From the NCBI GenBank assembly GCA_009377585.1, contig WHTS01000012.1, positions 4,867 through 68,866 of the forward strand: a DNA stretch of 64,000 bases, given 5' to 3'. The position numbers and the translations under genes were made by a program. Positions 8,465 to 23,290 of this stretch are shown here, in pieces. The stretch is from Betaproteobacteria bacterium. GTDB lineage: Bacteria > Pseudomonadota > Gammaproteobacteria > Burkholderiales > WYBJ01. Position 1 is the stretch's first letter, and each line of letters starts with the position of its first letter. Under the pieces are notes generated by a model that searched no databases, had not been told where the DNA came from, and saw nothing but the letters and a program-made list of their open reading frames with translations.

Positions 8465-9730
8465 ATGCTTCTCGGATGCATTGCCGACGATTTCACCGGT
8501 GCGACCGACCTGGCGAGCATGCTGGTCGCGGGCGGGATGCGCACGGTCCAGAAGATTGGAATTCCCCGGGATCGGTCGATCGCCGACGGCGCCGACGCGG
8601 TCGTGGTGGCGCTCAAGTCACGCACGATCGCCGCCGCCGATGCGGTCGCGCAATCGCTTGCCGCTTTGGAATGGCTGCGTGGCAGCGGCGCGCGCCAGAT
8701 CTACTTCAAGTACTGCTCGACCTTCGATTCGACCGATTGCGGCAACATCGGCCCGGTTGCGGATGCGCTCATGCAGGCGTTGGGCACCGACTTCACCATC
8801 GCCTGCCCGGCGCTACCGGCCAACCGGCGCACGATCTATCTGGGCCACTTGTTCGTCGGCGACATGCTGCTGTCCGATTCGCCCATGCGCCATCATCCGC
8901 TCACGCCGATGACCGACGCCAATCTCGTGCGCGTGCTCGGGCGCCAGACCCGGCGCAAGGTCGGCTTGGTTGCGTATCCCGAGGTTGCGGGCGGCTCGGA
9001 ACGTATTCGGGCCGCGTTCGATCGGCTGCGTGGCAACGGGGTGAACTACGCAATCGTCGACGCGTTGTGCGACGAGGATCTGAGTGCGATCGGCGCTGCT
9101 TGCGCTGATTTGCCGTTGGTCACGGCCGGGTCGGGCGTGGCGCTCGGGCTGCCGCAGAATTTCGTGCGCCAGGGGCTGCTGTCGCTTCGAAAGGACGCCG
9201 CGCTATTGCCTTCGGCGGGTGGTCGCGCCGCCGTGCTGGCCGGAAGCTGCTCCGAAGCAACGCGGCGCCAGGTGGCTGTCATGGCCAGGCACCATCCTGC
9301 TGTGGCGATCGATCCGTTGAGCGGCGGTGATGCGGATACGCTCGCGGGCTCTGCCATCGAGCGTGCGCGGGCCGATATCGCCGCTGGGAGGATCGTGTTG
9401 TTTTATTCCAGCGCCGAACCCAACCAGGTCGCGACGGTGCAGACGCAACTGGGTGCCGAACGGGCCGCTGCGCTGGTCGAAGGAGTGTTCGCGCAGCTCG
9501 CGCAAGAACTGGTCGCGCTCGGCGTGCGCCGGCTGGTGGTCGCGGGCGGCGAGACCTCGGGTGCGGTCGTCCAGGCGCTCGGCGTGAAGGCGCTTGCCAT
9601 CGGCGCGCCGATCGATCCCGGCGTGCCGTGGACCATGAGCCTCGGCGAGCCGCGCATCGCGCTCGCGCTCAAGTCGGGAAATTTTGGCGCGGACGATTTC
9701 TTCGACAAGGCGCTCGGGATGGCGTCGTGA
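8465..9730 (+). CDS. otnK: Four-carbon acid sugar kinase (3-oxo-tetronate kinase, YgbK/OtnK family)
   Basis: Start ATG 8465 after GGAGA. N-terminal CIADDFTGATD signature of the YgbK/DUF1537 kinase family. Followed by the class II aldolase-like partner. Confidence 0.85.
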   Translation: MLLGCIADDFTGATDLASMLVAGGMRTVQKIGIPRDRSIADGADAVVVALKSRTIAAADAVAQSLAALEWLRGSGARQIYFKYCSTFDSTDCGNIGPVADALMQALGTDFTIACPALPANRRTIYLGHLFVGDMLLSDSPMRHHPLTPMTDANLVRVLGRQTRRKVGLVAYPEVAGGSERIRAAFDRLRGNGVNYAIVDALCDEDLSAIGAACADLPLVTAGSGVALGLPQNFVRQGLLSLRKDAALLPSAGGRAAVLAGSCSEATRRQVAVMARHHPAVAIDPLSGGDADTLAGSAIERARADIAAGRIVLFYSSAEPNQVATVQTQLGAERAAALVEGVFAQLAQELVALGVRRLVVAGGETSGAVVQALGVKALAIGAPIDPGVPWTMSLGEPRIALALKSGNFGADDFFDKALGMAS

Positions 9731-9866
9731 GCGGGGCGGAAGCCGGCAAGGTCGCAGACGGAGCGCATTTCCCTCCGCCTTGCTTTACGCGCGGCCGAAG
9801 CCAAGCTATCCCGCGATCGTTTTGCATCCCGCTTGCGCGGCAATCGGCTCGGTAAAGGAACGTGCA

Positions 9867-10499
9867 ATGAAAGAAGCGACACTGCGCGAGGAAATCGCTG
9901 CGCTCGGCCGCTCGATGTTCGAGCGCGGGCTCACTCACGGATCGACCGGCAACATCAGCGCCAGGCTCGACGACGGCTGGCTCCTGACGCCTACCGGCTC
10001 CAATCTCGGGCGGCTCGATCCGGCGCGCATTTCGAAGCTCGACTGGAACGGGAGGCTGGTCGCGGGCGATGCACCGTCGAAGGAGTCGTTTCTGCATCTT
10101 GCGATGTACCAGGAGCGCGACAAGAGCGGGGCAGTCGTGCACCTGCATTCGGTCCATTCGGTCGCCGTCTCGGTGCTGGAACAGATCGACGCAGCCGATC
10201 CGTTGCCGCCGCTGACGGCGTACTATGTCATGCGCATCGGACGGCTCGCGCTGGTGCCGTATTACGCGCCCGGGGACATGGCGCTGGCCGAGGCCGTGCG
10301 TGGCGTGGCCGCGAAGCACCATGCCGTGCTGCTCGCGAATCATGGCCCGGTGGTCGCCGGATCGAGTCTCGCCGCTGCCGCGGACGCGGTCGAAGAGCTG
10401 GAGGCCACCGCGCAGCTCTATCTGCTGCTGCGCGGGAGCCGCGTGCGTGCGCTGACCGAAGCACAGGTTGCCGATCTGAAGCAACGTTTTCCGACCTGA
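9867..10499 (+). CDS. otnC: Class II aldolase/adducin-family protein (3-oxo-tetronate 4-phosphate decarboxylase, YgbL/OtnC-like)
   Basis: ATG 9867 after AAAGGAA. Motifs GSTGNISARL, VVHLHS, LLANHGPVV. Sits directly downstream of otnK. Confidence 0.82.
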   Translation: MKEATLREEIAALGRSMFERGLTHGSTGNISARLDDGWLLTPTGSNLGRLDPARISKLDWNGRLVAGDAPSKESFLHLAMYQERDKSGAVVHLHSVHSVAVSVLEQIDAADPLPPLTAYYVMRIGRLALVPYYAPGDMALAEAVRGVAAKHHAVLLANHGPVVAGSSLAAAADAVEELEATAQLYLLLRGSRVRALTEAQVADLKQRFPT

Positions 10500-10502
10500 C
10501 CG

Positions 10503-10985
10503 ATGGAGGAAGAGATGGCCGAACAGCCGCAATCCCTGCTGAGCGCAGCAGCGATCGCCGCGATGGCGGAGCGCAAGTTCCAGCACATGTTCAATGCCAA
10601 CGGGATCCGCATGACACGTTCCTTGAGCGACGCCTGCGGCTTGAAGCAGCTCGGCGTGCACCTGGTCCGGGTCGAGCCGGGGCGCGAATCGACCGAGTAT
10701 CACACCCATTCGCACGACGAGGAGTGGATCTACATCCTCTCGGGGCGCGCAATCGCCGAAATTGACGGGCGCAAGACCGAGGTCAAGGTCGGCGATTTCA
10801 TGGGCTTCGTCGCAGGTTCGGCGCCGCACACCATGAAGAACGAATCGACCGAGGATCTTGTGTATCTGGTCGGCGGCACCCGGCATGCCTACGACGTGGT
10901 CGACTATCCGCGCCGCGGCATCCGCTCCTACAAGTACGACGGCAAGCGCGACAACGTTGACACGAAGAAGCTCGGGGTGGAATGA
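10503..10985 (+). CDS. Cupin-domain protein
   Basis: Cupin metal motif HTHSHDEEWIYILSG...GDFMGF...PH. 160 aa. An alternative start at ATG 10515 follows GGAGGA. Confidence 0.75.
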   Translation: MEEEMAEQPQSLLSAAAIAAMAERKFQHMFNANGIRMTRSLSDACGLKQLGVHLVRVEPGRESTEYHTHSHDEEWIYILSGRAIAEIDGRKTEVKVGDFMGFVAGSAPHTMKNESTEDLVYLVGGTRHAYDVVDYPRRGIRSYKYDGKRDNVDTKKLGVE

Positions 10986-10989
10986 CCTA

Positions 10990-11068
10990 CTCATTGCGAT
11001 GCGTGGGTGAGTGGAGTGCTCCCCAGGATTGGGTGGTGTGGGCCGATATATCCAGTCCGATCCGATCG
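10990..11068 (+). other. Degenerate remnant of the 3' end of an Rhs/YD-repeat core (ends ...GRYIQSDPI)
   Basis: Translates to ...SPGLGGVGRYIQSDPI, the xGRYIxxDPIG core junction motif. It is truncated right after DPI and has an in-frame TGA upstream. A 29-nt stretch, 11040..11068, is 27/29 identical to 12378..12406. Confidence 0.6.
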
Positions 11069-11223
11069 CAGTACGCGCACCTTCGACCCCGCCTGCTCCA
11101 TTGCAGCGAGCAGGCGCCTCCACTACACTGGCCGCCAACAGGTCGTACGGCGCGATCCCGCCTGAGTGGCTCTTGGCTTGCGGCGGCGGTCGCGGATTCG
11201 ATGCTTACAGCCCGGAGGGGAAC

Positions 11224-12267
11224 ATGAACGCGCCTACCGCAACTTCCGCAGCCACGCGTCCCGCCGCTGTCCGTTCTGACGCGCCGAAGTTCGAGCTCGA
11301 TCCGAAGTGGCCCAAGCCGTTGCCCGAGGGCTGGATCACCGGCCAGCTGCCCTGCGTGTACGTCGATCACAATGACAGTATCCTGATCGTCAATCGCGGC
11401 AACATCACCGACGAAGAACGCGAGACCTGCATCCAGGCACCGCCGGTGATGATCTTCGATCAGGGCGGCAACCTCGTCCACGCCTGGGGCGACTGGGACG
11501 TGATGCCCTCGACGCCGCACAGCTGCGCGGTGGATCGCGACAACAACGTGTGGGTTTCCGCCAACGGCGACGGCATGGTGCAGAAGTACACCTACGACGG
11601 CAAGCTGCTGCTGCAGATCGGCCAGAAAGGGGTGTTCGACACGGCCGACGGCGGCAAGAAAGGCCCGGGGCTCAATGCGGCGCACGATCGCTTCAACAAG
11701 CCGGCCGGCATCGCCTGCGATCCGGCCAACGGCGACGTCTACTTCGCCGACGGCTACGGCAACCGCCGCGTGGTCGTGTTCGACAAGGACGGCAAATACC
11801 TGCGCCAGTGGGGACGGCAGGCGACGCCGGAAGAGATGGAAGCCGGCGTGGGCGGCGCGTTCGCCGAGGTGGTGCACAGCGTCGATATCGGCAACGACGG
11901 GCTGGTCTACGTGGGCGACCGCCAGGGAGACCGTGTCCAGGTGTTCGACAAGCAGGGCAACTTCAAGCGCAATATCTGGGTACGCACTGGCACGCCGCAG
12001 CTTCCCGACAAGCGCGGCACCGCGTGGTGGACGGCGTTCTCACGCGATGCGTCACAGAAATATCTGTACGTGATGAACGGGCGCAACGAGCAGGTGCACA
12101 TCCTCGATCGCGAGAGCGGGGAGATCCTGTCGAGCTTCGGCCGGCCGGGCCACCAGCTGGGCGATTTCACCCATGGGCACAGCATCGCGGTCGATACGCG
12201 CGGTAATCTGTACGTGGCGGAAACGAATTGGGGCCGGCGCGTGCACCGCTTCCGCCCGGCTGGCTAA
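11224..12267 (+). CDS. NHL-repeat beta-propeller protein (peptidyl-alpha-hydroxyglycine alpha-amidating lyase-like)
   Basis: ATG 11224 after GGAGGGG. Repeated NHL-type blades (VDRDNNVWVSANGDGMVQKYTYDGK, IACDPANGDVYFADGYGNRRVVVFDKDGK, VDIGNDGLVYVGDRQGDRVQVFDKQG, IAVDTRGNLYVAE). Confidence 0.8.
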   Translation: MNAPTATSAATRPAAVRSDAPKFELDPKWPKPLPEGWITGQLPCVYVDHNDSILIVNRGNITDEERETCIQAPPVMIFDQGGNLVHAWGDWDVMPSTPHSCAVDRDNNVWVSANGDGMVQKYTYDGKLLLQIGQKGVFDTADGGKKGPGLNAAHDRFNKPAGIACDPANGDVYFADGYGNRRVVVFDKDGKYLRQWGRQATPEEMEAGVGGAFAEVVHSVDIGNDGLVYVGDRQGDRVQVFDKQGNFKRNIWVRTGTPQLPDKRGTAWWTAFSRDASQKYLYVMNGRNEQVHILDRESGEILSSFGRPGHQLGDFTHGHSIAVDTRGNLYVAETNWGRRVHRFRPAG

Positions 12268-12363
12268 CACGCCACTTGCGCGCATCCGGCGTTGGGGCTG
12301 GCTGCGCAGCGTTCGGCGGTGTGATGCTCTACGCGTTTCGGGCTGCTGGCCGATACGTTGTAA

Positions 12364-12819
12364 GCAGCTGCCACCCTGGGCCGATATTTCCAATCCGATC
12401 CGATCGGGCTCGCGGGCGGCATCAATACCTATGCATATGTTCAAAGCAATCCGCTGACTTGGATCGACCCGGATGGTCGCCAGAGCAGAGAAGGAAGAGA
12501 ACGTCCGAGTGATCGAACCCCGCGAGACCGACCCGATGGGCCGTATGGTCCCATTGGTCAGGCAAGCACTGATCCTTCAAAAGTACCCACGCCCTCGGTG
12601 CCTTCGACGTCACTGGTTCCGACGACGTTCCAGGCATGCATGGCGAAAAATCTCGCCGACTGTCCACTCGCTGTAGTGGGTTCGTGCGCGCCAATCTGTG
12701 CAATTGCCGCTCCGACCGGACCTGGGGCATTAGGCTGCGCGATCGGATGCGCATGCACCATCAGCTACACGTGTTATGAGCTTAGCCGGATGCAGTGTAA
12801 CTACTTATCTGGCCGATAG
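12364..12819 (+). pseudogene. Orphan, 5'-truncated Rhs-family C-terminal cassette: core junction plus an unrecognised Cys-rich C-terminal tip
   Basis: The frame opens right after a TAA at 12361..12363 and has no plausible start. It encodes [38 protein letters not shown] (RHS repeat-associated core junction). This is followed by about 113 aa: an R/P/S/T-rich linker, then a hydrophobic tail with 9 Cys. Further degenerate core-like sequence lies in another frame at about 12320..12363. Local GC is clearly below the window average. Confidence 0.75.
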
Positions 12820-12838
12820 TCGTTCAGGGGACGACTCG

Positions 12839-13183
12839 ATGGTTACGATTCGAAAACGCGTTTACTTCAAGTGCCCGAAGTGTGGTCATGCGACGAGCTA
12901 TGCTCTTCAAATCGCCGGAGAGAAAAATAGCTACGTGTGCGAGCGCTGCAGTTCCATTTCGACCCCGAGGAACTATCTGCTCGCAAGCTTTGTTTACGGG
13001 GCGGTCCTCGGCGGGCTCATGGGCGTTATAGCCTATTGGATCTTTACTCGGCATCTGTTCACCGCATCGCCGGCGTTCGCGATATTGGCCGCCGTGCCTA
13101 TCGGGTTAATTCTTGCATGGCTTGTTGCGCCAATCCTGTCGCGAGTGTTTTACCGATGGACCTTGATAAAACCAGGTTCGTAG
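12839..13183 (+). CDS. Small membrane protein with N-terminal zinc ribbon; putative immunity protein for the adjacent Rhs tip
   Basis: ATG 12839 after AGGGGA, 20 nt after the toxin stop. CPKCGH...CERC zinc ribbon, then two or three hydrophobic helices (LLASFVYGAVLGGLMGVIAYWIF; AFAILAAVPIGLILAWLVAPIL). Low GC, like the toxin tip. Confidence 0.6.
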   Translation: MVTIRKRVYFKCPKCGHATSYALQIAGEKNSYVCERCSSISTPRNYLLASFVYGAVLGGLMGVIAYWIFTRHLFTASPAFAILAAVPIGLILAWLVAPILSRVFYRWTLIKPGS

Positions 13184-13288
13184 CGACGAAGGTCCAGTAA
13201 CGGGCAATCGCGGCGATGGACTGGCGTAATGCATCCTGAGTGGTCTCGTTGGGCGCCTGAGTTTTGCGAAGGACGAGGCAGTGCTGCG

Positions 13289-14218
13289 TCAAGGCTGCGA
13301 TTCAGCGTCATCGTCGCCCAAGAGCTTGCCCTGCTCGGGCCCGCGCTCATGGCGAATGACCTGCACGATGCTGTAGATGGCCTTGAGCTTGCCGAGCTCG
13401 ATCCACTGGCGGATCTGTAGCTTCACGTGCAGGATGTCGTTCTTACGGAAAGCCGCCTCGCCCGACTGCACGGCGTGCATGAAGGCTTCATCCTCGATCG
13501 CGACGTAAATCGTGCGGCTGCCATCGGAAACGCGCCACTTGTTCTCTTCCTCGAACGAAGGCGCGACGATGGTGACGCGCGTGTCGGTGACGGAGATCGT
13601 CTCGCCCTCGTGCTCGGTCGGGGCGACGAAGGCGGGGAAGTCGTCGCGCGTGACCTCGACGGTGTCTTTGCCCTTATGGCGGACCTTGAAGAGGTCGATG
13701 CCGCGGCTCTTGAGCGGCTCGACGATGCGCTCGACTGCTTTGCGGGCGCGCAGATTCTTGAACAGCTCCCACACGCGCCGGTCGACGCTGACGGGTTCGG
13801 CATCGCCTTCGAAGGTGATCTTCACCCGTTCGGTATGCTCGACGGTGACGGAGGTGGTTCTCCGACCGCGGCCATGCTTGATGAGCTGGAACAGGCCGAA
13901 CCCTGTGCCGAGGACACCGGAAATCCCGAGGATCTGGAAGAGGTTCGCCCAGGCGCTCGCCTCGCTGCTGCCGAAGAGACTGACGATCTGCTGATAGAAA
14001 GTGGCGAGCTCGAGGCTGACCTCGAAAGAACCCTGCTCGAAGCCGGCGCGCACGCGAAGCCGGATCTGCACCTCGGGCGGCAAGGCCAGGTCGTGGGCCT
14101 CGTCGAAGAGCTCGGCGAGCGCGAGCAGCGCCGGTGCCAGATCCTTCGCGTCAATCGCGCCTTCGGCGACATCCTCCCCGTCGTACACGATGCTGAAGCG
14201 TGCATCGTCTGCCGCCAT
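13289..14218 (-). CDS. Hypothetical protein, 309 aa, no recognisable domain (last gene of the XRE-ORF6N operon)
   Basis: Long ORF with good coding character, 27 nt downstream of the ORF6N gene. Acidic N-terminal region, one Gly-rich hydrophobic segment (ANLFQILGISGVLGTGFGLFQLI) followed by KHGRGRR, and a beta-rich charged C-terminal half. Confidence 0.7.
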   Translation of the reverse strand: MAADDARFSIVYDGEDVAEGAIDAKDLAPALLALAELFDEAHDLALPPEVQIRLRVRAGFEQGSFEVSLELATFYQQIVSLFGSSEASAWANLFQILGISGVLGTGFGLFQLIKHGRGRRTTSVTVEHTERVKITFEGDAEPVSVDRRVWELFKNLRARKAVERIVEPLKSRGIDLFKVRHKGKDTVEVTRDDFPAFVAPTEHEGETISVTDTRVTIVAPSFEEENKWRVSDGSRTIYVAIEDEAFMHAVQSGEAAFRKNDILHVKLQIRQWIELGKLKAIYSIVQVIRHERGPEQGKLLGDDDAESQP

Positions 14219-14245
14219 GGAACTCCTCCCCTTCTTCTTAGCTGC

Positions 14246-14800
14246 TTACTTCTCCTGCGGATGCACGAAGCCGATCGGCCGTCGCCTGGGTACGGGCTCG
14301 GGCGGGGCCATGAGCTTCTTGATCGCGTCGAGGATCTCGAAGATCGTCTCGTCCTGGGTGTCGATGCGCTGCTCAAGGGCGGTGAGCTTGCGAGCAAGGG
14401 CCTTGTGCGTGGCGAGGACCTCGCGCATCTGCACGAAGGCGCGCACGACGTAGACGCCCATCTCGATGGCGCGAGGGCTGTTGAGCACGTTGGCGGCCTG
14501 GATTGCGCCATGTTCGGTGAAGGCGAAGGGAGTGAAGCGCGGGTCGCGGTGCTTCTGGGAACCGGTCGCAATTTGCGACCGGTTCAGCGTATCGAGCTCG
14601 GCACGGGTGAGCCGGAACATGAAGTCCTCGGGGAAGCGCTCGATGTTGCGCTTCACCTGCTCGTTGAGCCGTCGAGTTTCAACGCCATAGAGTGACGCGA
14701 GGTCGGCATCGAGGATGACCTTGTGGGCGCGTACGAGAAGGATGCGGCTGGTGATGGCCTCGACGGCGATCGCGACCGATGCTCGCTTCGATCCCGCCAT
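14246..14800 (-). CDS. ORF6N (KilA-N-like) DNA-binding domain protein with C-terminal coiled coil
   Basis: ILLVRAHKVILDADLASLYGVETRRLNEQVKRNIERFPEDFMFRLT...FTEHGAIQAANVLNS is the ORF6N pattern seen in phage and mobile-element proteins. 5-nt gap to the upstream XRE gene. Confidence 0.85.
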   Translation of the reverse strand: MAGSKRASVAIAVEAITSRILLVRAHKVILDADLASLYGVETRRLNEQVKRNIERFPEDFMFRLTRAELDTLNRSQIATGSQKHRDPRFTPFAFTEHGAIQAANVLNSPRAIEMGVYVVRAFVQMREVLATHKALARKLTALEQRIDTQDETIFEILDAIKKLMAPPEPVPRRRPIGFVHPQEK

Positions 14801-14805
14801 GGGTC

Positions 14806-15198
14806 TCAGTGGCTCGTGCCTGCGAGCACGTCTTCGAGCATCTGAATGACGAGCGGCTGCTTGGCGCGGGGAAGCTGCGCGATGCGCTCCATCTGCTGCT
14901 GGAGCTTCGGTGCCGGCCCGCGTTTACCGGCCGCGCGCACGGGCTCGCCGAGGAGCTCTTCCACACCGACGTGGAGCGTGCGCGCCATTTGCACGACCAT
15001 CGACACTGGCGGGCGGGCGCGTCCCACCGCGTATTGGGGCAAGCGTTTGCTGGGCGATGCCGAGCTCGTCGGCGAGCGCCTGCTGCGACAGACCCTGGAC
15101 TTGCGTGCGGCGGCGAGCCGCGCGCCCAGGTCCTTGAAGAACTGCTGTTCCCCGGGGTTCATGGAAGGCGCTGCTGCAAGCTGCGAGGCGCTCAGCAT
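14806..15198 (-). pseudogene. XRE-family HTH regulator interrupted by two compensating 1-nt frameshifts
   Basis: Frame A gives MNPGEQQFFKDLGARLAAARKS... and ...QYAVGRARPPVSMVVQMARTLHVGVEELLGEP...KRGPAPKLQQQMERIAQLP. The HTH core QGLSQQALADELGIAQQTLA is encoded only in another frame, between the homopolymer sites 15097..15098 and 15036..15039. Confidence 0.7.
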
Positions 15199-15228
15199 AA
15201 GGCCGTGTCCGAGGAGGATGACCGACTC

Positions 15229-15245
15229 TACTCACAATGTGAGTA
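15229..15245. promoter_or_regulatory. Perfect palindrome TACTCACA-A-TGTGAGTA, candidate operator upstream of the XRE-ORF6N operon
   Basis: 8-bp inverted arms, 31 nt upstream of the first ATG (15198) of the XRE gene, within a lower-GC intergenic region. Confidence 0.5.
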
Positions 15246-15506
15246 ACTATATCGCAGAGCGATTGGTACTCAAAACCCTTTCGACAGCGTGCCAGGTCGG
15301 CGGCGAAACCGCACGAGACGGAGTGTGGCGCGGATTCGATCGTTAATCGCCGAAACGCATCTCTTGCCGCTTGCCGCCGGCGTTGCTCTTTGCTGGTTAA
15401 AGCGATCCTGGCCGAGTGCGCCTTCATTCTCGAGCTGCAAGCAACGGATGAATCAAGCAAAGTAGCCTCGACTACGACGCAAGCATGTCGGGTCAACTAT
15501 AGAGTA

Positions 15507-16016
15507 TCAGCGCTGCCTGCTGTGAGCGGGCGGTGTTGTATCAGGCGGCGTAATCATGCCTGCTCGCGCCGCGAACTTCTTGGCGGTGGGGTGATAGACG
15601 TAAGGCTGGTCGTCGACGAGCGCAAGAAATTCCGCGCGTGCCTGCACCGCGCGCTCGAAGGCGCCGCGTTCGCCGTACTTGCACACCGCGAAAGTCCTTG
15701 TTATTTGCTTACCGTCAGGACGTTTGAGCCGCGCCTGCCACGAACCCTGAGGCTGATTGTATGGGCGGATGAAGTGCACGCCGGGCACGCCGCTGGTATT
15801 GGACGAGCGAACGAGCTGATGAAATTCGCGCTTCGCGAGCGTGCGGGTTCGGGCGAGCACCCGATCGCGCCAGGCGATAGCGGCGGCCAGGGCCTTCTTC
15901 GAGCCCCCGCATCGAAGATCGTAGAAGCTCTTGTAGTAGGTCTTGCCGCGCCGGCGGATCGCGACCGCCCAACACCAGACGCTGGGTTTGGCTTGGATAC
16001 GGCTGATGGCGTACAT
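15507..16016 (-). CDS. AP2/ERF-type DNA-binding domain protein (two AP2-like repeats)
   Basis: Track ORF 15507..16220(-) trimmed to ATG 16016. Motifs WCWAVAIRRRGKTYYKSF and SGVPGVHFIRPYNQPQGSWQARLKRPDGKQITRTFAVCKYGERGAFERAVQAR are typical of bacterial AP2 domains. Confidence 0.7.
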   Translation of the reverse strand: MYAISRIQAKPSVWCWAVAIRRRGKTYYKSFYDLRCGGSKKALAAAIAWRDRVLARTRTLAKREFHQLVRSSNTSGVPGVHFIRPYNQPQGSWQARLKRPDGKQITRTFAVCKYGERGAFERAVQARAEFLALVDDQPYVYHPTAKKFAARAGMITPPDTTPPAHSRQR

Positions 16017-16054
16017 AACGATGCCGAACAGAATGGATCGGCTACACTCTCGCT

Positions 16055-18079
16055 TCAGTTGCCGGTTCGCGGGACGCGCTCCTCGAACTCGCGTTCGAAC
16101 ACGTTCGCATCGCCTTCGTAGGCTGCGAGCTTCCCGCGGATGACGAACTCCCGCTTGGTGCACGAGACCTGCGTCCGACTCTGCGTGCGGATGCGCCAGT
16201 CCCCGCGCTCGAACTCCCACGTCCAGTCCACTCTAGCGGTCGCGGACAGCGGATCGTCCTCGACCACGCAATAACGCTCGGTCGAGCGCGCTTCCGCGAT
16301 CAGATCGATCTCGTCGTAACGGTTGCGCCCGCTCGTATCGTGCACCTCGACCACGGTCAAACCCTTGCCTAGATCGGTCGTGATGACGCGATTGCGGCTG
16401 CCGGGCGTGAGCGCCGTGCGCGCGACCGGGGCAGCGGATTCCGGCGCCTTGAAGCGCGACAGTTTGCCGTCGGCGCGCGAGGCTGGCCGAATCGGCAGCT
16501 CGAGCGCGCTCTTTCCGGTGACGAGCGTGAGCGTTACCGGCTCGGGCGAAGGCCACACGAGTGGCCAATACGTGGTCGAGAGCGCGACCCGGATGCGGTG
16601 GCCCTTGGCGAACGAGTAGGCGCAGTCGATCAGATCGAAGCGCACCGTGTACTGCTTGCCCGGCGTGAGCCGGGCCACCTTGTCGGCGCCTTCACGATGC
16701 GTGAGGTTGAAGGTCTGGTACGTGACGCGAGTGGATGCGCCGTCGGGCGCGACATCGCACACGCGCACGCACACGAACGCGACCGGCCGATCGACCGAGA
16801 ACGTGAGCGTGACTGCGGGGGTGCCGAGGATCTCGAGATTCTTGCGCAGCCGCGCGCTGTCGAAGCAGATCGACTGGCCGTCGTCGGCGCGCTGATCGCC
16901 GGGAAGCTCCGGACTGGGCCCGTGCTGGAACCAGGGCATGAGCTCGCCGGCGCCAAGGCCGAGCGTCTGCGGCGATTTCCACGCAAGCTTGGCCGAGCGC
17001 CCGGCGCGTGCGTCGAGCGTGCCGCCGGCATTCATGAAAAAACGCTGTGGCCTGATGCGCGGGCTCGGCCATTGCGCTTCGCTCACCCAGCGCCCGGGCG
17101 ATTCGGCATAGAAGCTCTTGGCGGGCACCGAGCGCGGCATCCAGGCGATGAGTTTGGGATCGCGCGTGACGCCCGTGTCCCGGCCGCGCATCCAGTGGTC
17201 GTACCAGCGCAGCGCTTCCTGCAGGAAACCGATCGCGGGCCCGGGCATGCCGAGGTGCCCGTAACGATGGCCCCATGGCCCGATGAGGCCTTTGCACGGC
17301 GCCTCGAGCTTGCTCAGCGATTCGCTCACCGCCCCGACGTAGGCCCCGTCGGCCCAGCCGCTCACGGCGAAGAACGGCACCTTGATGCGTGCGTGGTCGA
17401 TCGCGCGGCTGCGCCAGTACTTGTCGAACCTCTGGTGCTTCAGCGCCGAGATGATCTGCGGCGTGTTGTTCTCCACGCGCGCCATCCACATTTCGCGCCA
17501 GCGGCTGCCGACCAGCGCCGGATCGGGTGGCCGCGACTTGTAGCCGAACACCTGGCTGGACCAGCGGATCGCTCGCAGGAGAAAACATCCGCCGCGATAG
17601 ACCTGACTGTAGCGAAAACGGTCGGGTGCATACGACTGCGCGATCACGGCCTTGAGCTGCGGCGGCGCGCGAAACGCCGTCTGTATGCCCTGAAAGCCGC
17701 CCCACGATATCCCGAACATGCCGACCTGGCCATCGCTCCATGGCTGTTGCGCGATCCAAGCGAGCACCTGCACGGTGTCTTCGGATTCGTCGCTCGTGGC
17801 GAACACGCCCTGGATGCCGTCGGAATCACCCGAGCCGCGAATGTCCACGCGCATCGTGGCATAGCCGTGGCCGGCGAAGTAGCGGTGATGCATGGCATCG
17901 CGCGGCGCGTAGATGTCACGCTTGCGATACGGAATGACCTCGATGATGGTCGGCACGCGCTGCGTCGATACGATATCGGGCAGCCACAGCTTGGCGGCCA
18001 GCCGCACCCCGTCGGGCATTGGAATCCAGCAATCTTCGGTTTCGGTGTACTTGTGGGGGAAGCGGGTGAGGGTTTTCAA
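16055..18079 (-). CDS. CocE/NonD-family (S15, X-Pro dipeptidyl-peptidase-like) alpha/beta hydrolase
   Basis: 674 aa. Motifs GYATMRVDIRGSGDSDG, the nucleophile elbow GMFGISWGG, and a C-terminal jelly-roll domain. TTG start. Confidence 0.88.
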   Translation of the reverse strand: MKTLTRFPHKYTETEDCWIPMPDGVRLAAKLWLPDIVSTQRVPTIIEVIPYRKRDIYAPRDAMHHRYFAGHGYATMRVDIRGSGDSDGIQGVFATSDESEDTVQVLAWIAQQPWSDGQVGMFGISWGGFQGIQTAFRAPPQLKAVIAQSYAPDRFRYSQVYRGGCFLLRAIRWSSQVFGYKSRPPDPALVGSRWREMWMARVENNTPQIISALKHQRFDKYWRSRAIDHARIKVPFFAVSGWADGAYVGAVSESLSKLEAPCKGLIGPWGHRYGHLGMPGPAIGFLQEALRWYDHWMRGRDTGVTRDPKLIAWMPRSVPAKSFYAESPGRWVSEAQWPSPRIRPQRFFMNAGGTLDARAGRSAKLAWKSPQTLGLGAGELMPWFQHGPSPELPGDQRADDGQSICFDSARLRKNLEILGTPAVTLTFSVDRPVAFVCVRVCDVAPDGASTRVTYQTFNLTHREGADKVARLTPGKQYTVRFDLIDCAYSFAKGHRIRVALSTTYWPLVWPSPEPVTLTLVTGKSALELPIRPASRADGKLSRFKAPESAAPVARTALTPGSRNRVITTDLGKGLTVVEVHDTSGRNRYDEIDLIAEARSTERYCVVEDDPLSATARVDWTWEFERGDWRIRTQSRTQVSCTKREFVIRGKLAAYEGDANVFEREFEERVPRTGN

Positions 18080-18361
18080 ATCGTGGGCTTGGGGGATGAT
18101 CGTGTGAGGCTTTCGATGCTATCAACAGCACGAGCCTGTGTACATGTCGCTCCGACATCGTGCGTGCGGTTCGCGGCGCGCGATTGCTATACTTGGCGCA
18201 ATCCTTCCTGGATGGGGAACGCGACATCCGCGCGGGTATACGCGAGGTCAAGGCGGGGTCGATCGCCGACGGCGGCAAGAAGCGACAGTTCGCCTACTGG
18301 GAAGACATCATGCGCAAGGTCGCGCAAAGCGGTCCAACGCAGAAGTCAGCAGGAGACATCG

Positions 18362-18874
18362 ATGCCCGACACGGTAGCACCGCGCTATTCTCCGCTTGTT
18401 CCGCAGGACATGCTGGACGAGATTTTCTGGAAGGATGGACGTGAGCCGAAGGACGAGCGGCTGTGGGTGCCAAACGGCCCCGGCCGCTGGTCCAGGCCGC
18501 TGTGCCTGAACGTGAGCCAAGGGTATTGGGTGCACCTGGTGAAGATCACACAGGCGGGCGTCGTGTCGCGCCATCGCCATCCTGCGCCCGTCCACGGCTT
18601 CGTTCTCGAAGGTCGCTGGCGCTATCTCGAGCGCGATTGGATTGCAACGGCTGGAAGCTATTTGTTCGAACCGCCGGGTGATGTGCACACGCTGGTCGTC
18701 GACGAAGGCGACTCGATGATTACCCTTTTCCACAACACCGGTGCGCTGCTGTACTGCGACGAGGAGGGCCGAACCGTCGGCTCAACCGACGTGTTCGACA
18801 GGGTCGCCGCAGCGCGCAAGCACTTCGAATCGGTCGGCCTCGGCGCCGACTACGTGAAGCGCTTTATCCGCTAG
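18362..18874 (+). CDS. 2,4'-dihydroxyacetophenone dioxygenase-family cupin protein
   Basis: ATG 18362 after AGGAGA. 170 aa with WVHLVKI...SRHRHPAPVHGFVLEGRWRYLE...FEPPGDVHTL, characteristic of the DAD cupin family. The long upstream part of track ORF 16598..18874 is a shadow of the minus-strand gene. Confidence 0.8.
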   Translation: MPDTVAPRYSPLVPQDMLDEIFWKDGREPKDERLWVPNGPGRWSRPLCLNVSQGYWVHLVKITQAGVVSRHRHPAPVHGFVLEGRWRYLERDWIATAGSYLFEPPGDVHTLVVDEGDSMITLFHNTGALLYCDEEGRTVGSTDVFDRVAAARKHFESVGLGADYVKRFIR

Positions 18875-18882
18875 AAGGAAGC

Positions 18883-18909
18883 GAGCCCCGCGACTCGCGC
18901 CGCGGGGCT
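18883..18909. terminator. GC-rich hairpin between convergent genes (candidate bidirectional terminator)
   Basis: AGCCCCGCG-actcgcgc-CGCGGGGCT, 9-bp stem, located between the stops at 18874 (+) and 18915 (-). Confidence 0.5.
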
Positions 18910-18914
18910 GCCGC

Positions 18915-19454
18915 TCAGTTCTGCTCCTGCCCTTCGCGCAGCAGGTCGATCACCTGCGGTGCGATCTCCCGAGCGCGTTGATCGAGCTGCTCCGGAGTCA
19001 GGTTGGCAATCGGGTGCGGCATCATGACGAAACGGAAATCCGGCAAGCCCCAGGTGCGGGCCATCGCCTTTCCGGTCTTTTCAAAAACGTCCGTGATGAT
19101 GGACGCGGACGGTACGCCTTGCTGTTCGAATACGATACTGTCGAGCACACTGCCCGAGCTGCAGGACCCTCAATCGCCGACGCCGGCTATGACGATGTCG
19201 CAGCCGGCCTTGTACTCCTCGACGATTTCGGTGTGGGGCGCAGAGCCCGAGCTCTTCTTGCGCCGGATGAGATGGGTCTTGGCGCCATGCTCCTTTTCCA
19301 GGATGTCGGCGATGCGCAGCAGCAACTGATCGGAGTTGTGCTTGGTGTTGTCGATCAACCCGATGCGCAATCCGGCCAGGGATTCCGGCCGGGCCGCGTA
19401 GTTGATGCGCCGGTTGCTCACTTCGGTGGTGGGATCCAGAATCTGCACTGCCAT
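18915..19454 (-). CDS. UGSC-family selenoprotein; in-frame TGA at 19170..19172 read as selenocysteine
   Basis: ATG 19454 (MAVQILDPTT...). Track ORFs 19170..19874 and 18915..19148 share one frame and are separated only by one TGA. Read-through gives ...CDIVIAGVGD-U-GSCSSGSVLDSIVFEQQGVP..., the U-G-S-C signature. The 3' half has no RBS or ATG of its own. Confidence 0.8.
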
Positions 19455-19491
19455 ATCGGCTCCTTTCGTGTGAGTTGCCGGCCCCAAGGCT

Positions 19492-20526
19492 TTAGGGCCG
19501 GCGGATCTCCTTGCTGACGCTTTGTGAACCGTTCTTGCCGCCCCAACCCGGGATGTAGCACGACTGCACGCCGGCGCGGCCTCCGGCGGAAATGACCAGA
19601 AAGTCGGACGGCTCCTGCACCAGCGGCACCAGAGTGCGTTCGTCTTCGGCGGTGACGTCATCCGGCTTGACGTGTGCGCGCTTCTGCTCCGCCACCGAGG
19701 TCTGCGAATGCTCGAACGCGTATTGCTGCACTTGTTCGCGCGTCCAGCCGGACTTCTTGATGGTTGCGGAATGCTCGCCGGCGAACACCATTGCGTATTG
19801 CGGCTGGCGCGCCGTACCCGCCGACATGCGCATGTGCGCGCACATGGTTTCGAGTACGCCTTCGGCCGTGGCACTCAGCTGGTTGGAAATCTGGTGCGGT
19901 GCGAGCGCGGCGAAGACGGTGACTGCGTTCTGGTCGGCGCGAAATCCGCGCGTGGTATGAAAGGGCGGCCAGGGACTCTCCGCTTCGTTTTCGGCGATGC
20001 AATAGCTGTATTTGCCGCCGTGCCCCAGGCTGCTGCGGTCGAGCTCGCCCGGAAGCGTGCCGATGACGTTGCGCATGACCAGCCGCACCGCGCGGCCTAT
20101 GGTCGCGTTGGCGCGCCAGCCCGGTCCGAACAGGTTGTCGCCGCAATTGATGTCGAGCTCGCGCGCGATCGGGCCGTTCACGACCATGAATACGGCCGAG
20201 CCGCCGGTGCTGGTGGCGGGCCCGTGATAGCCGTAGAGCGGATCGGCGAGCGCTTCGATGGCGGCGGCAACCACCGGCATGTAATCCGCCTTGCACCCGG
20301 CCATGACCGCATTGATCGCAACCTTCTCGGCGGTCACCGACACCTGCCGGTTCTCGATGAATGCGAGCTGGTGATCGGGCGCCATGCCCGCGGCGTTGAG
20401 CATGGCTTCGACGCGATCGGGCGTGGGCGGTATCACGGGCAACCCGTCGGTCCAGCCGTTGGTGTAGCAAAGCTCGATCGCACCGGACAAATCGGGCGCC
20501 ATGTGGCGTCGCGATCTCAGTTCCAT
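19492..20526 (-). CDS. Conserved hypothetical protein, 344 aa, upstream partner of the UGSC selenoprotein
   Basis: ATG 20526 after AAAGGGG. Strong coding character (CYTNGWTDGLPVIPPT..., INAVMAGC, GPATSTGGSAVFMVVNGP, FGPGWRANATIGRAVRL). 37-nt gap to the UGSC gene. I could not assign a family. Confidence 0.75.
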   Translation of the reverse strand: MELRSRRHMAPDLSGAIELCYTNGWTDGLPVIPPTPDRVEAMLNAAGMAPDHQLAFIENRQVSVTAEKVAINAVMAGCKADYMPVVAAAIEALADPLYGYHGPATSTGGSAVFMVVNGPIARELDINCGDNLFGPGWRANATIGRAVRLVMRNVIGTLPGELDRSSLGHGGKYSYCIAENEAESPWPPFHTTRGFRADQNAVTVFAALAPHQISNQLSATAEGVLETMCAHMRMSAGTARQPQYAMVFAGEHSATIKKSGWTREQVQQYAFEHSQTSVAEQKRAHVKPDDVTAEDERTLVPLVQEPSDFLVISAGGRAGVQSCYIPGWGGKNGSQSVSKEIRRP

Positions 20527-20683
20527 TTCAGCCCCTTTGTCGTTCGTTCGATTCGCAACCCGCTCACCGGCATTGCCGTCACTCCGGCTCCGGCGGAAGC
20601 GACCTCCCGCGCAAGCGGAAATTCGATTCGCAGAAAGTATGCACCGTTCCAGCGACGGGGAAAAGGCTCATGCCGCGACCGGC

Positions 20684-21505: not shown

Positions 21506-21569
21506 GGCGCGCTCCTCGCTGCGATTCTATTGGAACTTTCGCAGAGTGAACGATGCCCCTCACCCCCAA

Positions 21570-21592
21570 CCCCTCTCCCGGCGGGAGAGGGG
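21570..21592. repeat. REP-like GC hairpin CCCCTCTCCC-ggc-GGGAGAGGGG
   Basis: Perfect 10-bp stem in the divergent intergenic region between the hydrolase and capA-like genes. Same CCCCTC.../...GAGGGG flavour as the elements at 23.3 and 59.2 kb. Confidence 0.6.
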
Positions 21593-21680
21593 AGCATTGC
21601 GCGCCAGGCAATCGGGCTGGCGCCGCCCCGCGTCTTGCTGCATGATGCGGCAGATCGAAACGCGTGCGGCAGGAGGAAAC

Positions 21681-22721: not shown

Positions 22722-22831
22722 GGGTCGTTGAGAGGTCGAGTCATACAGCTTCACCGGTGCGATCAGGTCGTAGTCGTACCTAGTCGTACCGTATCTTTTG
22801 CGAGCAAGTACGTTGACGCGAAGAGGAGCCC

Positions 22832-23212: not shown

Positions 23213-23290
23213 CCGCTCTACGGCAGCGTCGCAGTTGCGACGCCGGATGTGAAAGTCGACGTGAGCGTCGCGGATTGATTTTCCGCGGAC

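What the first reader, a model, noticed from the sequence alone, without database searches (positions are those of the whole stretch)
13289..15245. XRE - ORF6N - 309-aa unknown: compact three-gene operon with a palindromic operator, a candidate undescribed mobile-element or defence-type module
Three co-directional minus-strand genes are separated by 5 and 27 nt and preceded by the perfect palindrome TACTCACA-A-TGTGAGTA (15229..15245). The first is an XRE-type regulator. The second has an ORF6N/KilA-N-like DNA-binding domain plus a coiled coil, an architecture typical of phage and island regulatory or anti-repressor proteins. The third is a 309-aa protein in which I recognise no domain: an acidic N-terminus, one Gly-rich hydrophobic segment followed by KHGRGRR, and a beta-rich C-terminal half. 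A regulator, a phage-type DNA-binding protein and an unknown possibly membrane-active effector, all inside an accessory island, resemble small abortive-infection or toxin-antitoxin-like systems. That function is inference only.
Basis: partly seen in the sequence, partly recalled or inferred. Interest (0 to 1): 0.65.

Follow-up and report, generated by a model that had tools for sequence, protein, structure and literature searches.

The report
Decayed mobile-element arm carrying defence-candidate genes
The three genes are real, but they are a mosaic left over from a small integrating element (a broken repressor plus two separately catalogued, untested anti-phage candidate genes), not a dedicated new three-gene system; the middle gene also hides a conserved DNA palindrome that I found described nowhere.

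Summary
Three points need correcting.

1. The "XRE" gene is crippled. Two compensating 1-nt indels put the helix-turn-helix into another frame.
2. The 309-aa protein is not unclassified. It belongs to NCBIfam NF053583 (LAPAL family), PHROG 3243 and PADLOC candidate PDC-S42. The ORF6N protein is PADLOC candidate PDC-S05.
3. The trio is not a conserved unit. LAPAL is a large stand-alone family (about 5,500 50%-identity clusters). It is found inside type I R-M operons, beside prophage integrases, or, in the closest clade, directly after an XRE repressor divergent from a primase-integrase operon.

ORF6N occupies a variable slot between XRE and LAPAL in only a few relatives. The window's copy is closest to solitary ORF6N genes. 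Integrase and primase are missing here, so this is a remnant.

The palindrome is probably the repressor's operator. It abuts the only promoter-like site, and relatives carry differently sequenced TAC...GTA palindromes at the same place.

The LAPAL model shows an unmatched N-terminal part and a C-terminal OB fold. A defence or exclusion role is inferred, not shown.

Unexpectedly, ORF6N genes carry a position-conserved, covarying perfect palindrome inside the coding sequence.

The parts
15246..15273 (-). Promoter-like site (-35 TTGAGT, 16-nt spacer, -10 TATAGT) for the XRE-ORF6N-LAPAL transcript
   Evidence: It is the only sigma-70-like match in 12300-16300. It overlaps the remnant of the conserved intergenic motif CTGTCGAAAGGGTTTTG (15271-15287), which is CTGTCAAGGGGGTT in intact relatives.
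15229..15245 (.). 17-bp palindrome TACTCACA-A-TGTGAGTA, the probable operator of the XRE repressor
   Evidence: It is an exact, single copy. It starts right after the -10 hexamer and ends 30 nt before the XRE start codon. Relatives have TAC...GTA palindromes of different sequence at the same place: L043 TACTCTAATGTAGAGTA, L071 TACGCCATATTGGCGTA, L068 TACGCCACTACGGCGTA.
14806..15198 (-). XRE-family repressor gene with a compensated double frameshift (about 15036-15098) that scrambles 19 residues of the helix-turn-helix
   Evidence: The raw frame has no Pfam HTH hit; the HTH_3 fragment lies in the overlapping ORF 14924-15496. The repaired protein scores 61.9 bits against 28.1 bits on NF041951 and gains HTH hits. 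Alignment with five kinds of XRE from related loci confirms this. An independent Logan assembly has the identical sequence.
14246..14800 (-). ORF6N-domain protein (184 aa) with a conserved C-terminal helical tail ending in PIGF; a PADLOC PDC-S05 family member; cargo in the variable slot
   Evidence: Pfam PF10543 E=6e-29. PADLOC PDLC04869/04856/04849, E down to 4e-47. More than 8000 related clusters exist, the closest at about 80% identity in solitary contexts.
14559..14585 (.). 27-nt perfect palindrome GAACCGGTCGCAA-A-TTGCGACCGGTTC inside the ORF6N coding sequence (codons L-N-R-S-Q-I-A-T-G-S)
   Evidence: It is the longest perfect palindrome in the window. Its position is conserved and its sequence covaries across 36 distinct ORF6N genes. 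It is far beyond what synonymous-codon resampling gives. Folding z-scores are -4.7 (DNA) and -4.2 (RNA).
13289..14218 (-). LAPAL-family protein (309 aa; NF053583 / PHROG 3243 / PADLOC PDC-S42). Layout: N-terminal alpha/beta part with the DLAPALLAL helix (aa 1-75), hydrophobic Gly-rich helices plus basic cluster (aa 84-120), middle alpha/beta part (aa 121-197), C-terminal OB fold (aa 205-291, nt 13346-13606)
   Evidence: Family matches are. AlphaFold gives pLDDT 81.4 for the full length and 85.8 with pTM 0.85 for aa 1-200. The only PDB similarity is to OB folds of the SSB/RPA/Rim1 type. A GGAGG ribosome-binding site lies at 14225-14229.
12379..12486 (+). Orphan Rhs-core end motif ([33 protein letters not shown]) convergent with LAPAL; the same motif follows LAPAL in related elements
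   Evidence: Translation is. tblastn and blastn match ORFs downstream of LAPAL in L043, L049, L064, L067 and L092. One of those ORFs has a weak Pfam RHS hit. Identification as an Rhs-core motif rests on my own knowledge of the motif.

Best explanation
The region is the surviving 'immunity and cargo' arm of a small integrative element. In intact relatives, a tyrosine integrase and a ~1010-aa DnaG/Toprim primase are transcribed one way. An XRE repressor, a variable cargo slot and a LAPAL gene are transcribed the other way. The two arms are separated by a short control region with a conserved motif and a TAC...GTA palindrome.

Proposed roles:
- The XRE protein is the element's repressor. It binds the palindrome that abuts the -10 hexamer (inferred).
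- LAPAL (PADLOC PDC-S42) is a stand-alone cargo gene expressed together with the repressor, much as lambda rexAB is expressed with cI.
- ORF6N (PADLOC PDC-S05) is a second, independent cargo gene that has landed in the slot between them.

In this window the integrase and primase are gone. The repressor's DNA-binding helices are scrambled by two compensating frameshifts. ORF6N and LAPAL are intact and keep every family-invariant residue. They are therefore probably expressed constitutively from the now unrepressed promoter (inferred).

LAPAL most likely acts alone as a phage-exclusion or abortive-infection protein. Its best-conserved residues (NKWRV, FRKGD, QW) lie in a C-terminal OB fold, so it probably binds single-stranded nucleic acid. 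The structurally unmatched N-terminal 200 residues, including a hydrophobic Gly-rich helix pair, would be the effector or the membrane or oligomerisation part (inferred; lowest confidence).
For: Family identity:
- LAPAL is identified.
- It is a stand-alone family of about 300-aa proteins: 5537 50%-identity clusters at E<=1e-3, all full-length matches.

No fixed partner:
- Clustering of upstream and downstream neighbours over 66 distinct loci gives only small groups: XRE, ORF6N, HsdM/HsdS, MmeI/helicase.

Defence-type contexts:
- HsdM-LAPAL-HsdS-HsdR in L023, L024 and L030.
- MmeI-like enzyme + LAPAL + helicase in L025.
- N6_N4 methylase-LAPAL in L037, plus one nSTAND/WD40 neighbour.
- In four temperate phages the gene sits between the lysis genes and the integrase or attachment end, not among structural genes.

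Close clade (57-66% identity):
- XRE-LAPAL is divergent from primase + integrase in L043 and L049/L066.
- Conserved primase-like sequence lies upstream of XRE-LAPAL in L063-65, L068 and L076.
- The slot is empty there. It holds ORF6N in the window and L067, and a different 137-aa ORF in L071.

ORF6N independence:
- Its closest homologues (80%) are solitary. LAPAL-linked ones are only 52% identical.
- ORF6N-bearing loci are interspersed among XRE-LAPAL loci in the LAPAL tree.

Operator.

Remnant status:
- tblastn finds no integrase or primase in the 64-kb window.
- The intergenic motif is only partly kept.
- GC dips to 0.60-0.63, and the flanks are metabolic genes.

Frameshifts.

Structure.
Against: - No experiment shows any activity for a LAPAL protein. 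The PDC label is guilt-by-embedding only (bioRxiv 10.1101/2024.01.29.577857).
- Some LAPAL genes have ordinary neighbours (L010, L022).
- ORF6N lies directly upstream of LAPAL in at least two divergent lineages, and an ORF6N C-terminal fragment does so in a third. This could reflect functional coupling rather than a shared insertion slot.
- The two indels sit in C runs and could be read errors. The identical Logan contig may derive from the same reads.
- The compensating second indel suggests selection to keep the XRE C-terminal part or downstream translation, which a simple decay story does not need.
- The OB assignment rests on Foldseek E-values of 4e-3 and above.
- Membrane association is contradicted by the compact AlphaFold model (pTM 0.85) and by a family member with a charged version of the segment (P0111).
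Confidence: 0.6

Rival explanations
1. A dedicated three-component (or ORF6N+LAPAL two-component) defence system. XRE regulates, ORF6N senses or binds DNA, and LAPAL is the effector.
For: The full trio recurs in L067, whose LAPAL is 64% identical. ORF6N-LAPAL without XRE occurs in L052-54. An 86-aa ORF matching only the ORF6N C-terminal tail precedes LAPAL in L046-48. The order and tight spacing are the same each time.
Against: ORF6N is next to LAPAL in 0 of 41 genome and phage loci. It is absent in most close relatives, which have XRE-LAPAL directly. The window's ORF6N is nearest to solitary genes (80%), not to the LAPAL-linked ones (52%). Another gene fills the same slot in L071. PADLOC models both as single-gene candidates.
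Confidence: 0.12
2. XRE-LAPAL is a type II toxin-antitoxin-like pair, with the XRE protein as antitoxin and LAPAL as toxin.
For: XRE and LAPAL are adjacent and co-oriented in at least five distinct sequence groups of the close clade. The repaired XRE hits antitoxin-type HTH models weakly. The second indel restores the frame of the XRE C-terminal 75 residues.
Against: More than 90% of sampled LAPAL loci lack an adjacent XRE. The XRE sits as a divergent switch partner of a primase-integrase operon, which is the position of an element repressor. LAPAL is intact in the window although the XRE DNA-binding part is destroyed. ORF6N or another ORF can separate the two genes.
Confidence: 0.08
3. LAPAL is a phage structural (virion) protein, as the NCBIfam name suggests, and the locus is a prophage scrap.
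For: The NF053583 description reads 'LAPAL motif-containing putative phage structural protein'. One genome locus has a Mu-type portal gene within 3.5 kb upstream. Relatives occur in a few phage genomes.
Against: In Lactobacillus phage A2, Listeria phage 188, Bifidobacterium phage PMBT6 and M. abscessus prophiT48-1, the gene lies after the lysis genes or next to the integrase, outside the head and tail modules. Only 8 of 50,697 phage records have a match. Many copies sit in R-M operons or non-phage contexts. PHROGs lists the function as unknown.
Confidence: 0.04
4. The whole block is non-functional debris of a dead element.
For: Integrase and primase are lost. The repressor is frameshifted. An Rhs-core fragment without a start codon lies next door.
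Against: ORF6N and LAPAL are full-length. They retain every invariant residue of their families. The promoter-like site, the LAPAL ribosome-binding site and the gene spacing are preserved. The XRE frame was restored by a second indel.
Confidence: 0.12

Closest known systems
PADLOC phage defence candidate PDC-S42 = NCBIfam NF053583 'LAPAL motif-containing putative phage structural protein' = PHROG 3243
   Same: The match is full-length and far above threshold (PDLC05015 E=2e-84; NF053583 253 bits against a cut-off of 60; phrog_3243 E=1e-62). The length is the same, about 300 aa, and the LAPAL motif is present. Relatives are embedded in type I R-M operons, which is how PDCs were defined.
   Different: The window copy is not embedded in a defence system. 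It follows an XRE repressor and an ORF6N gene in a remnant of an integrative element. The 'structural protein' name is not borne out by gene positions in phages. No function has been tested for this family.
PADLOC PDC-S05 (ORF6N/RhuM-type single-gene candidates)
   Same: The 184-aa protein matches three PDC-S05 models (E down to 4e-47) and Pfam ORF6N.
   Different: The only PDC-S05 member reported to protect E. coli B against T7, T5 and T4 carried a Virulence_RhuM domain (bioRxiv 10.1101/2024.09.26.614923). It is not this ORF6N + helical-tail architecture. Activity of this subfamily is untested.
Lambda cI-rexA-rexB and other repressor-linked prophage exclusion genes (from established knowledge)
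   Same: A cargo gene is transcribed with the element's repressor from an operator-controlled promoter, divergent from the replication and integration genes. It is therefore expressed in the resident state.
   Different: There is no sequence or fold similarity to RexA/RexB. The element is an integrase-primase element, not a lambdoid phage. Co-transcription and exclusion activity are inferred here.
PrrC-type genes embedded in type I R-M operons (guilt-by-embedding, Payne et al., bioRxiv 10.1101/2024.01.29.577857)
   Same: LAPAL relatives lie between hsdM and hsdS in the same orientation (L023, L024, L030).
   Different: LAPAL has no ABC ATPase or nuclease domain. The window copy has no R-M neighbours.

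Membership tests
NCBIfam NF053583 LAPAL family | HMM score above the curated cut-off (60 bits) over the full length | tested here: met
   252.7 bits, residues 8-291 on profile positions 1-291 of 292
NCBIfam NF053583 LAPAL family | LAPAL sequence motif | tested here: met
   The window protein has DLAPALLALAELF at residues 26-38. A28 and P29 are invariant, and L27, A30, L31 and L32 are at least 90% conserved, across 107 homologues.
NCBIfam NF053583 LAPAL family | Phage structural role implied by the family name | tested here: not met
   In four phage genomes the gene lies next to the integrase or after the lysis genes, outside the structural modules. Virion content was not tested.
PADLOC PDC-S42 | Match to the PDC-S42 HMM | tested here: met
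   PDLC05015 E=2.1e-84, residues 5-299 on profile positions 3-298 of 302
PADLOC PDC-S42 | Embedded in BREX, DISARM or type I R-M systems (the basis of the candidate call) | tested here: met
   Met for relatives: HsdM-LAPAL-HsdS-HsdR in L030 was confirmed with Pfam, and L023/L024 have the same layout. It is not the situation in the window itself.
PADLOC PDC-S42 | Anti-phage activity | not testable with these tools
   No paper in the library mentions PDC-S42. PDCs are described as untested.
PADLOC PDC-S05 / Pfam ORF6N | ORF6N domain and PDC-S05 HMM match | tested here: met
   PF10543 E=6.1e-29. PDLC04869 E=4.3e-47.
XRE-family HTH repressor (Pfam HTH_3 type) | Intact helix-turn-helix in the translated gene | tested here: not met
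   The in-frame 130-aa product has no HTH hit. After repair of two 1-nt indels it has many and aligns with intact relatives.
Dedicated multi-gene defence system (XRE-ORF6N-LAPAL) | Conserved co-occurrence of the component genes across lineages | tested here: not met
   The trio occurs only in the window and L067. ORF6N-LAPAL also occurs in L052-54. ORF6N is absent in all 41 genome and phage loci and in most close relatives.
Type II toxin-antitoxin pair (XRE antitoxin + toxin) | Obligate pairing of the toxin with an adjacent antitoxin gene | tested here: not met
   Most LAPAL genes have no adjacent XRE. Toxicity and neutralisation were not testable.
OB-fold nucleic-acid-binding domain | Five-stranded barrel with a helix between strands 3 and 4, and structural similarity to SSB/RPA | tested here: inconclusive
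   The secondary-structure order E207-219, E228-231, E236-241, H244-252, E262-274, E277-291 fits. Foldseek hits to SSB, Rim1 and Rfa1 have probability 0.98-1.0 and TM up to 0.63-0.67 on the target, but E is only 4e-3 or worse. Binding was not tested.
Single-pass membrane protein | Hydrophobic helix of about 19 residues or more, with flanking positive charges | tested here: inconclusive
   The Kyte-Doolittle 19-residue maximum has a median of 1.81. It is 1.6 or more in 74% of 107 homologues and 1.47 in the window protein, followed by a K/R cluster. AlphaFold gives residues 1-200 as a confident compact unit with pTM 0.85.

The most novel reading that the evidence does not exclude
ORF6N genes may be self-contained, self-regulating cassettes. 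The perfect 11-16-bp-arm palindrome sits in the codons for L-R-S-Q-[FI]-[AV]-T-S. It would be a DNA site bound by the gene's own KilA-N-like product (or by a partner). This would give promoter-independent feedback by transcriptional roadblock wherever the gene lands, here also throttling the downstream LAPAL gene. What is shown: the palindrome is under nucleotide-level selection, covaries between lineages, and almost never uses G-U pairs. That it is a protein-binding site is conjecture.
Probability: 0.25. Interest if true: 0.7.

Novelty: new member of a known kind. Interest (0 to 1): 0.42.

Why it matters
As a three-gene defence system the finding does not hold, and both large proteins are already listed as untested candidates. 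That part is ordinary. Three results add value.

1. LAPAL/PDC-S42 gains a concrete natural setting. It is expressed with the repressor of integrase-primase elements, sits in prophage accessory-gene (moron) positions, and sits inside type I R-M operons. It also gains a first structural picture: an OB fold carrying the conserved residues, plus an N-terminal part with no PDB match. This argues against its database name 'phage structural protein' and gives clear experiments.

2. The slot between repressor and LAPAL looks like a small cargo hotspot.

3. The conserved intragenic palindrome of ORF6N genes is a sharp observation that I found undescribed, in a very abundant gene family. It may explain how such single-gene cassettes are regulated or moved.

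Tried and rejected
- **Rfam on 13000-15600:** no match at E<=1.
- **PDB by sequence profile:** nothing for LAPAL or ORF6N.
- **Foldseek against PDB:** the full-length LAPAL model gave only OB-fold hits. Residues 1-200 gave nothing better than generic ferredoxin-like matches (E>6e-3, TM<0.3).
- **Foldseek against viral models:** only uncharacterised proteins (a DUF6575 protein, Mycobacterium phage Pipsqueaks, Leptospira phage LE1).
- **Related-loci scan with the 29-sequence alignment:** I repeated it with 12 close sequences.
- **Pattern scan for GGTCGCAAWTTGCGACC in viral contigs:** 81 sites, but only 5 lie in ORF6N genes by HMM, plus one in a Bro-N/ANT antirepressor gene. 40 look like terminator hairpins. 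The core motif is therefore not specific to ORF6N and the scan says little.
- **Greedy longest-ORF neighbour calling:** it picked shadow ORFs in this high-GC DNA, for example missing the true XRE in L005. I relied on tblastn and on the collection's own gene calls instead.
- **Literature:** no paper mentions PDC-S42 or 'LAPAL motif'. Only 11 papers mention ORF6N, and none discusses a palindrome.
- **Rejected readings:** structural protein, TA pair and three-gene system, for the reasons given under the rival explanations.
Full report
**Observation**

The three minus-strand ORFs exist exactly as described: 14806-15198 (130 aa), 14246-14800 (184 aa) and 13289-14218 (309 aa). They are separated by 5 and 27 nt. 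A GGAGG ribosome-binding site lies 6 nt before the last gene's ATG. The palindrome TACTCACA-A-TGTGAGTA at 15229-15245 is exact and unique in the window.

A scan for perfect palindromes with arms of at least 8 nt and loops up to 4 nt returned 24 hits in the 64 kb, some sites listed more than once. The palindrome is therefore not remarkable alone. It does start directly after the -10 hexamer of the only sigma-70-like site in 12300-16300 (-35 TTGAGT at 15273, -10 TATAGT ending at 15246). It ends 30 nt before the first gene.

**The first gene is a damaged XRE gene**

- Its in-frame product has no Pfam hit. A fragment of HTH_3 appears in the overlapping ORF 14924-15496.
- Reading the DNA, the helix-turn-helix QGLSQQALADELGIAQQTLA lies in another frame. 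It sits between a missing C near 15096-15098 and an extra C in the run 15036-15039.
- Repairing both indels raises the score on the RstR-type repressor model from 28.1 to 61.9 bits. It also brings in many HTH models.
- The repaired 22-residue segment matches the XRE of the related locus L067 at 21 of 22 positions. The raw frame has 19 unrelated residues there.
- A Logan assembly of run SRR10173838 is 100% identical to window 8707-23318. The indels are therefore not an artefact of one assembler. Read-level error cannot be excluded.

**The other two proteins belong to catalogued families**

- The 309-aa protein has no Pfam domain. It is a full-length member of three catalogued families: NCBIfam NF053583 'LAPAL motif-containing putative phage structural protein' (253 bits, cut-off 60), PHROG 3243 (function unknown), and PADLOC PDC-S42 (E=2e-84).
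- The 184-aa protein has the ORF6N domain (E=6e-29) and matches PADLOC PDC-S05 (E=4e-47).
- PDCs are 145 untested candidates. They were defined because family members are embedded in BREX, DISARM or type I R-M systems (bioRxiv 10.1101/2024.01.29.577857).
- One PDC-S05 member, of RhuM type, protected E. coli B against T7, T5 and T4 (bioRxiv 10.1101/2024.09.26.614923).
- No paper in the library mentions PDC-S42 or a LAPAL motif.

**LAPAL across genomes**

- A profile search finds 5537 50%-identity clusters at E<=1e-3 and 1786 at E<=1e-30. All are about 300 aa and match end to end.
- In 37 loci from representative genomes of many phyla and 4 phage loci, tblastn finds an ORF6N relative next to LAPAL in none. 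It finds the XRE in one distinct locus.
- Neighbours are heterogeneous but often defence-related:
  - HsdM-LAPAL-HsdS-HsdR in Limnobacter and two Nitrosomonas genomes.
  - An MmeI-like enzyme, a CoiA_N protein, LAPAL and a helicase.
  - A DNA methylase, and one nSTAND/WD40 protein.
  - Some plain metabolic genes.
- Clustering of immediate neighbours over 66 distinct loci shows no general partner.
- Only 8 of 50,697 phage records have a match. In Lactobacillus phage A2, Listeria phage 188, Bifidobacterium phage PMBT6 and M. abscessus prophiT48-1, the gene lies between the lysis genes and the integrase or prophage end. That is the usual place for accessory 'moron' genes, not structural ones.

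**The close clade explains the window**

- Among LAPAL proteins 57-66% identical to the window's, the commonest layout is integrase and a ~1010-aa Zn-ribbon/Toprim primase on one strand, with XRE followed directly by LAPAL on the other (L043-45, L049-51/L066). L063-65, L068/69 and L076 show XRE-LAPAL with the primase-like upstream sequence.
- The full trio recurs in L067. ORF6N-LAPAL without XRE occurs in L052-54, with integrase and primase 3 kb away. In L046-48 an 86-aa ORF equal to only the C-terminal tail of an ORF6N protein precedes LAPAL. In L071 a different 137-aa ORF fills the gap between XRE and LAPAL.
- In a neighbour-joining tree of LAPAL, the ORF6N-bearing loci are scattered among XRE-LAPAL loci.
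- The ORF6N family is huge. The search saturated at 8000 candidates. The window's copy is about 80% identical to solitary copies among housekeeping or toxin-antitoxin genes. It is only 52% identical to the LAPAL-linked copies of L052 and L067.
- On plasmids, ORF6N genes follow site-specific integrases or sit next to a Tn3 transposase. Only three phage records have this subtype.
- Together this points to a variable cargo slot between repressor and LAPAL that has captured ORF6N genes more than once. It does not point to a fixed three-gene machine.

**Control region**

- In all intact relatives, the region between the primase start and XRE contains the motif CTAAAACCTGTCAAGGGGGTT. Just before XRE there is a 15-17-bp palindrome of the form TAC...GTA.
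- Its sequence differs between XRE types: TACTCTAATGTAGAGTA, TACGCCATATTGGCGTA, TACGCCACTACGGCGTA, ATACAAGCGTTGTAT.
- The window keeps a degraded motif (CTGTCGAAAGGGTTTTG, 15271-15287) and its own palindrome.
- Conserved position with changing sequence is what an operator matched to its repressor would show. Binding itself is inferred.

**The window copy is a remnant**

- tblastn with the integrases, primases and downstream ORFs of L043, L049 and L052 finds no integrase or primase anywhere in the window.
- Upstream of the control region there is instead a co-directional AP2-domain ORF.
- Downstream of LAPAL and convergent with it, 12379-12486 encodes [34 protein letters not shown] recognise this as the end motif of Rhs-core domains (my knowledge; there is a weak Pfam RHS hit on a related ORF).
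- The same motif occurs in several ORFs downstream of LAPAL in L043, L049, L064, L067 and L092.
- GC falls to 0.60-0.63 across the islet against 0.65-0.68 around it. The flanking genes are metabolic.

**LAPAL structure**

- With 107 homologues, AlphaFold gives mean pLDDT 81.4 and pTM 0.66.
- Residues 205-291 have the strand-strand-strand-helix-strand-strand order of an OB fold. They are the only part with PDB similarity: SSB, Rim1 and Rfa1, probability about 1, target TM up to 0.63, E 4e-3 or worse.
- Many of the family's invariant or near-invariant residues lie in this part: F222, N226-K227-W228-R229-V230, D243, F257, D261, Q271-W272.
- Residues 1-200, modelled separately, form a confident compact unit (pLDDT 85.8, pTM 0.85). 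It has no convincing PDB match.
- The hydrophobic Gly-rich segment (aa 84-116) passes the Kyte-Doolittle membrane threshold in 74% of homologues. It is followed by a basic cluster. The window protein scores 1.47, and one homologue (P0111) has charges there. Membrane insertion is therefore open.

**Most likely mechanism**

1. XRE is the element's repressor and acts at the palindrome. Position is shown; binding is inferred.
2. LAPAL is cargo expressed with the repressor. Gene order is shown; co-transcription is inferred.
3. ORF6N is independent cargo. This is supported by the comparative data.
4. In the window the repressor is disabled, so the two cargo genes are probably constitutively expressed (inferred).
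5. LAPAL acts alone in phage exclusion or abortive infection by binding single-stranded nucleic acid through its OB fold (inference from context and fold only).

The rivals are a true multi-component system, a toxin-antitoxin pair, a virion protein, and dead debris. They are weighed in their own section.

**Unexpected: a palindrome inside ORF6N genes**

- The longest perfect palindrome in the window is not the operator. It is GAACCGGTCGCAA-A-TTGCGACCGGTTC at 14559-14585, inside the ORF6N coding sequence.
- Twenty of 36 distinct ORF6N genes (32-100% protein identity) have a perfect palindrome with 11-16-nt arms. It is centred on the first base of the codon after the conserved Gln. Most of the rest have it with one or two mismatches.
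- The arm sequences differ between lineages with matching changes on both sides. 83% of cells are paired against 28-42% for slid controls. The covariation score is 0.52 against 0.07-0.14, and 0 of 500 shuffles reach it.
- Resampling synonymous codons for the same peptides gives 5.3 of 13 pairs on average against 11.7 observed. 29 of 36 genes fall at p<=0.001.
- G-T pairs are very rare: 4 against 15 A-C mismatches. This speaks against a sense-strand RNA hairpin and for a DNA-level (or antisense) element.
- A RefSeq example is the Bacteroides ovatus plasmid NZ_CP081918.1, positions 16795-17346. Some ORF6N genes (Sulfuricurvum, Butyrivibrio) lack the palindrome.
- Rfam has nothing here, and no paper found links ORF6N to a palindrome. 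Its function is unknown. A self-binding site giving context-independent feedback is my favoured conjecture.

**Verdict**

The locus is a decayed arm of an integrase-primase element. It carries a broken repressor and two already catalogued, functionally untested single-gene defence candidates. As a system it is a new member of known kinds. Its main value lies in three things: the comparative setting and first structural picture it gives LAPAL/PDC-S42, the doubt it casts on that family's database name, and the conserved intragenic palindrome of ORF6N genes.

Noticed in passing
window 14559-14585 (inside ORF6N CDS 14246-14800); also L126, L067, L052, L127, L134, L135, L139, L143, L200, L246, L255 and others: A perfect palindrome with 11-16-nt arms is centred on the codons S-Q-[FI]-[AV]-T of ORF6N genes. 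Its position is conserved and its arm sequence covaries. Codon choice is far from random for the same peptide, and G-U pairs are almost absent. I found it described in no paper and in no Rfam family.
   Followed up: partly
window 15036-15098: Two 1-nt indels in C runs, 58-60 nt apart, shift and then restore the XRE reading frame. They scramble only the helix-turn-helix. The restoring second indel suggests selection for the C-terminal part or for translation reaching the downstream genes.
   Followed up: yes
window 12379-12486 (+) and 11039-11068 (+): An orphan Rhs-core end motif ([14 protein letters not shown]...[10 protein letters not shown]) without a start codon lies convergent with LAPAL. 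A truncated second copy (GRYIQSDPI) forms a 30-nt, 93% direct repeat on the other side of the NHL-propeller gene. The same motif recurs in ORFs downstream of LAPAL in L043, L049, L064, L067 and L092. The Zn-ribbon plus membrane-segment ORF at 12776-13183 could be an immunity-type gene.
   Followed up: partly
L071 about 3474-3890: A different 137-aa ORF with a hydrophobic C-terminus occupies the slot between XRE and LAPAL where the window has ORF6N. It has no Pfam hit.
   Followed up: partly
L046-L048 (86-aa ORF at L046 4645-4905): A short ORF corresponding only to the C-terminal helical tail of ORF6N proteins (ending in PIGFV) sits directly upstream of LAPAL, next to a PIN_3/DUF2281 pair. It is either a deletion remnant or a free-standing tail module.
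   Followed up: partly
window 15507-16220 (-); L075 1219-1614: An AP2-domain ORF lies where intact relatives have the primase. A 27%-identical AP2 ORF lies downstream of LAPAL in L075.
   Followed up: no
L176 895-911 and L217 1821-1837 (viral contigs): The window's exact 27-mer GAACCGGTCGCAAATTGCGACCGGTTC occurs in apparently non-coding, A-run-flanked positions in two viral contigs. The 17-nt core GGTCGCAAWTTGCGACC is frequent as a terminator-like hairpin in AT-rich viral contigs, and it also occurs once in a Bro-N/ANT antirepressor gene (L177).
   Followed up: partly
window 21570-21592, 28305-28330, 28656-28681: Three further perfect palindromes have 11-nt arms: CCCCTCTCCCG-G-CGGGAGAGGGG, CGACTTCGAGC-GCGT-GCTCGAAGTCG and CGTCGGTTGCT-CAGC-AGCAACCGACG.
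   Followed up: no
L255 (B. ovatus plasmid), L256 (L. oakridgensis plasmid), L257 (S. kujiense plasmid): ORF6N genes sit immediately after site-specific integrase genes or next to a Tn3 transposase. This hints at a link between ORF6N genes and recombination modules.
   Followed up: no
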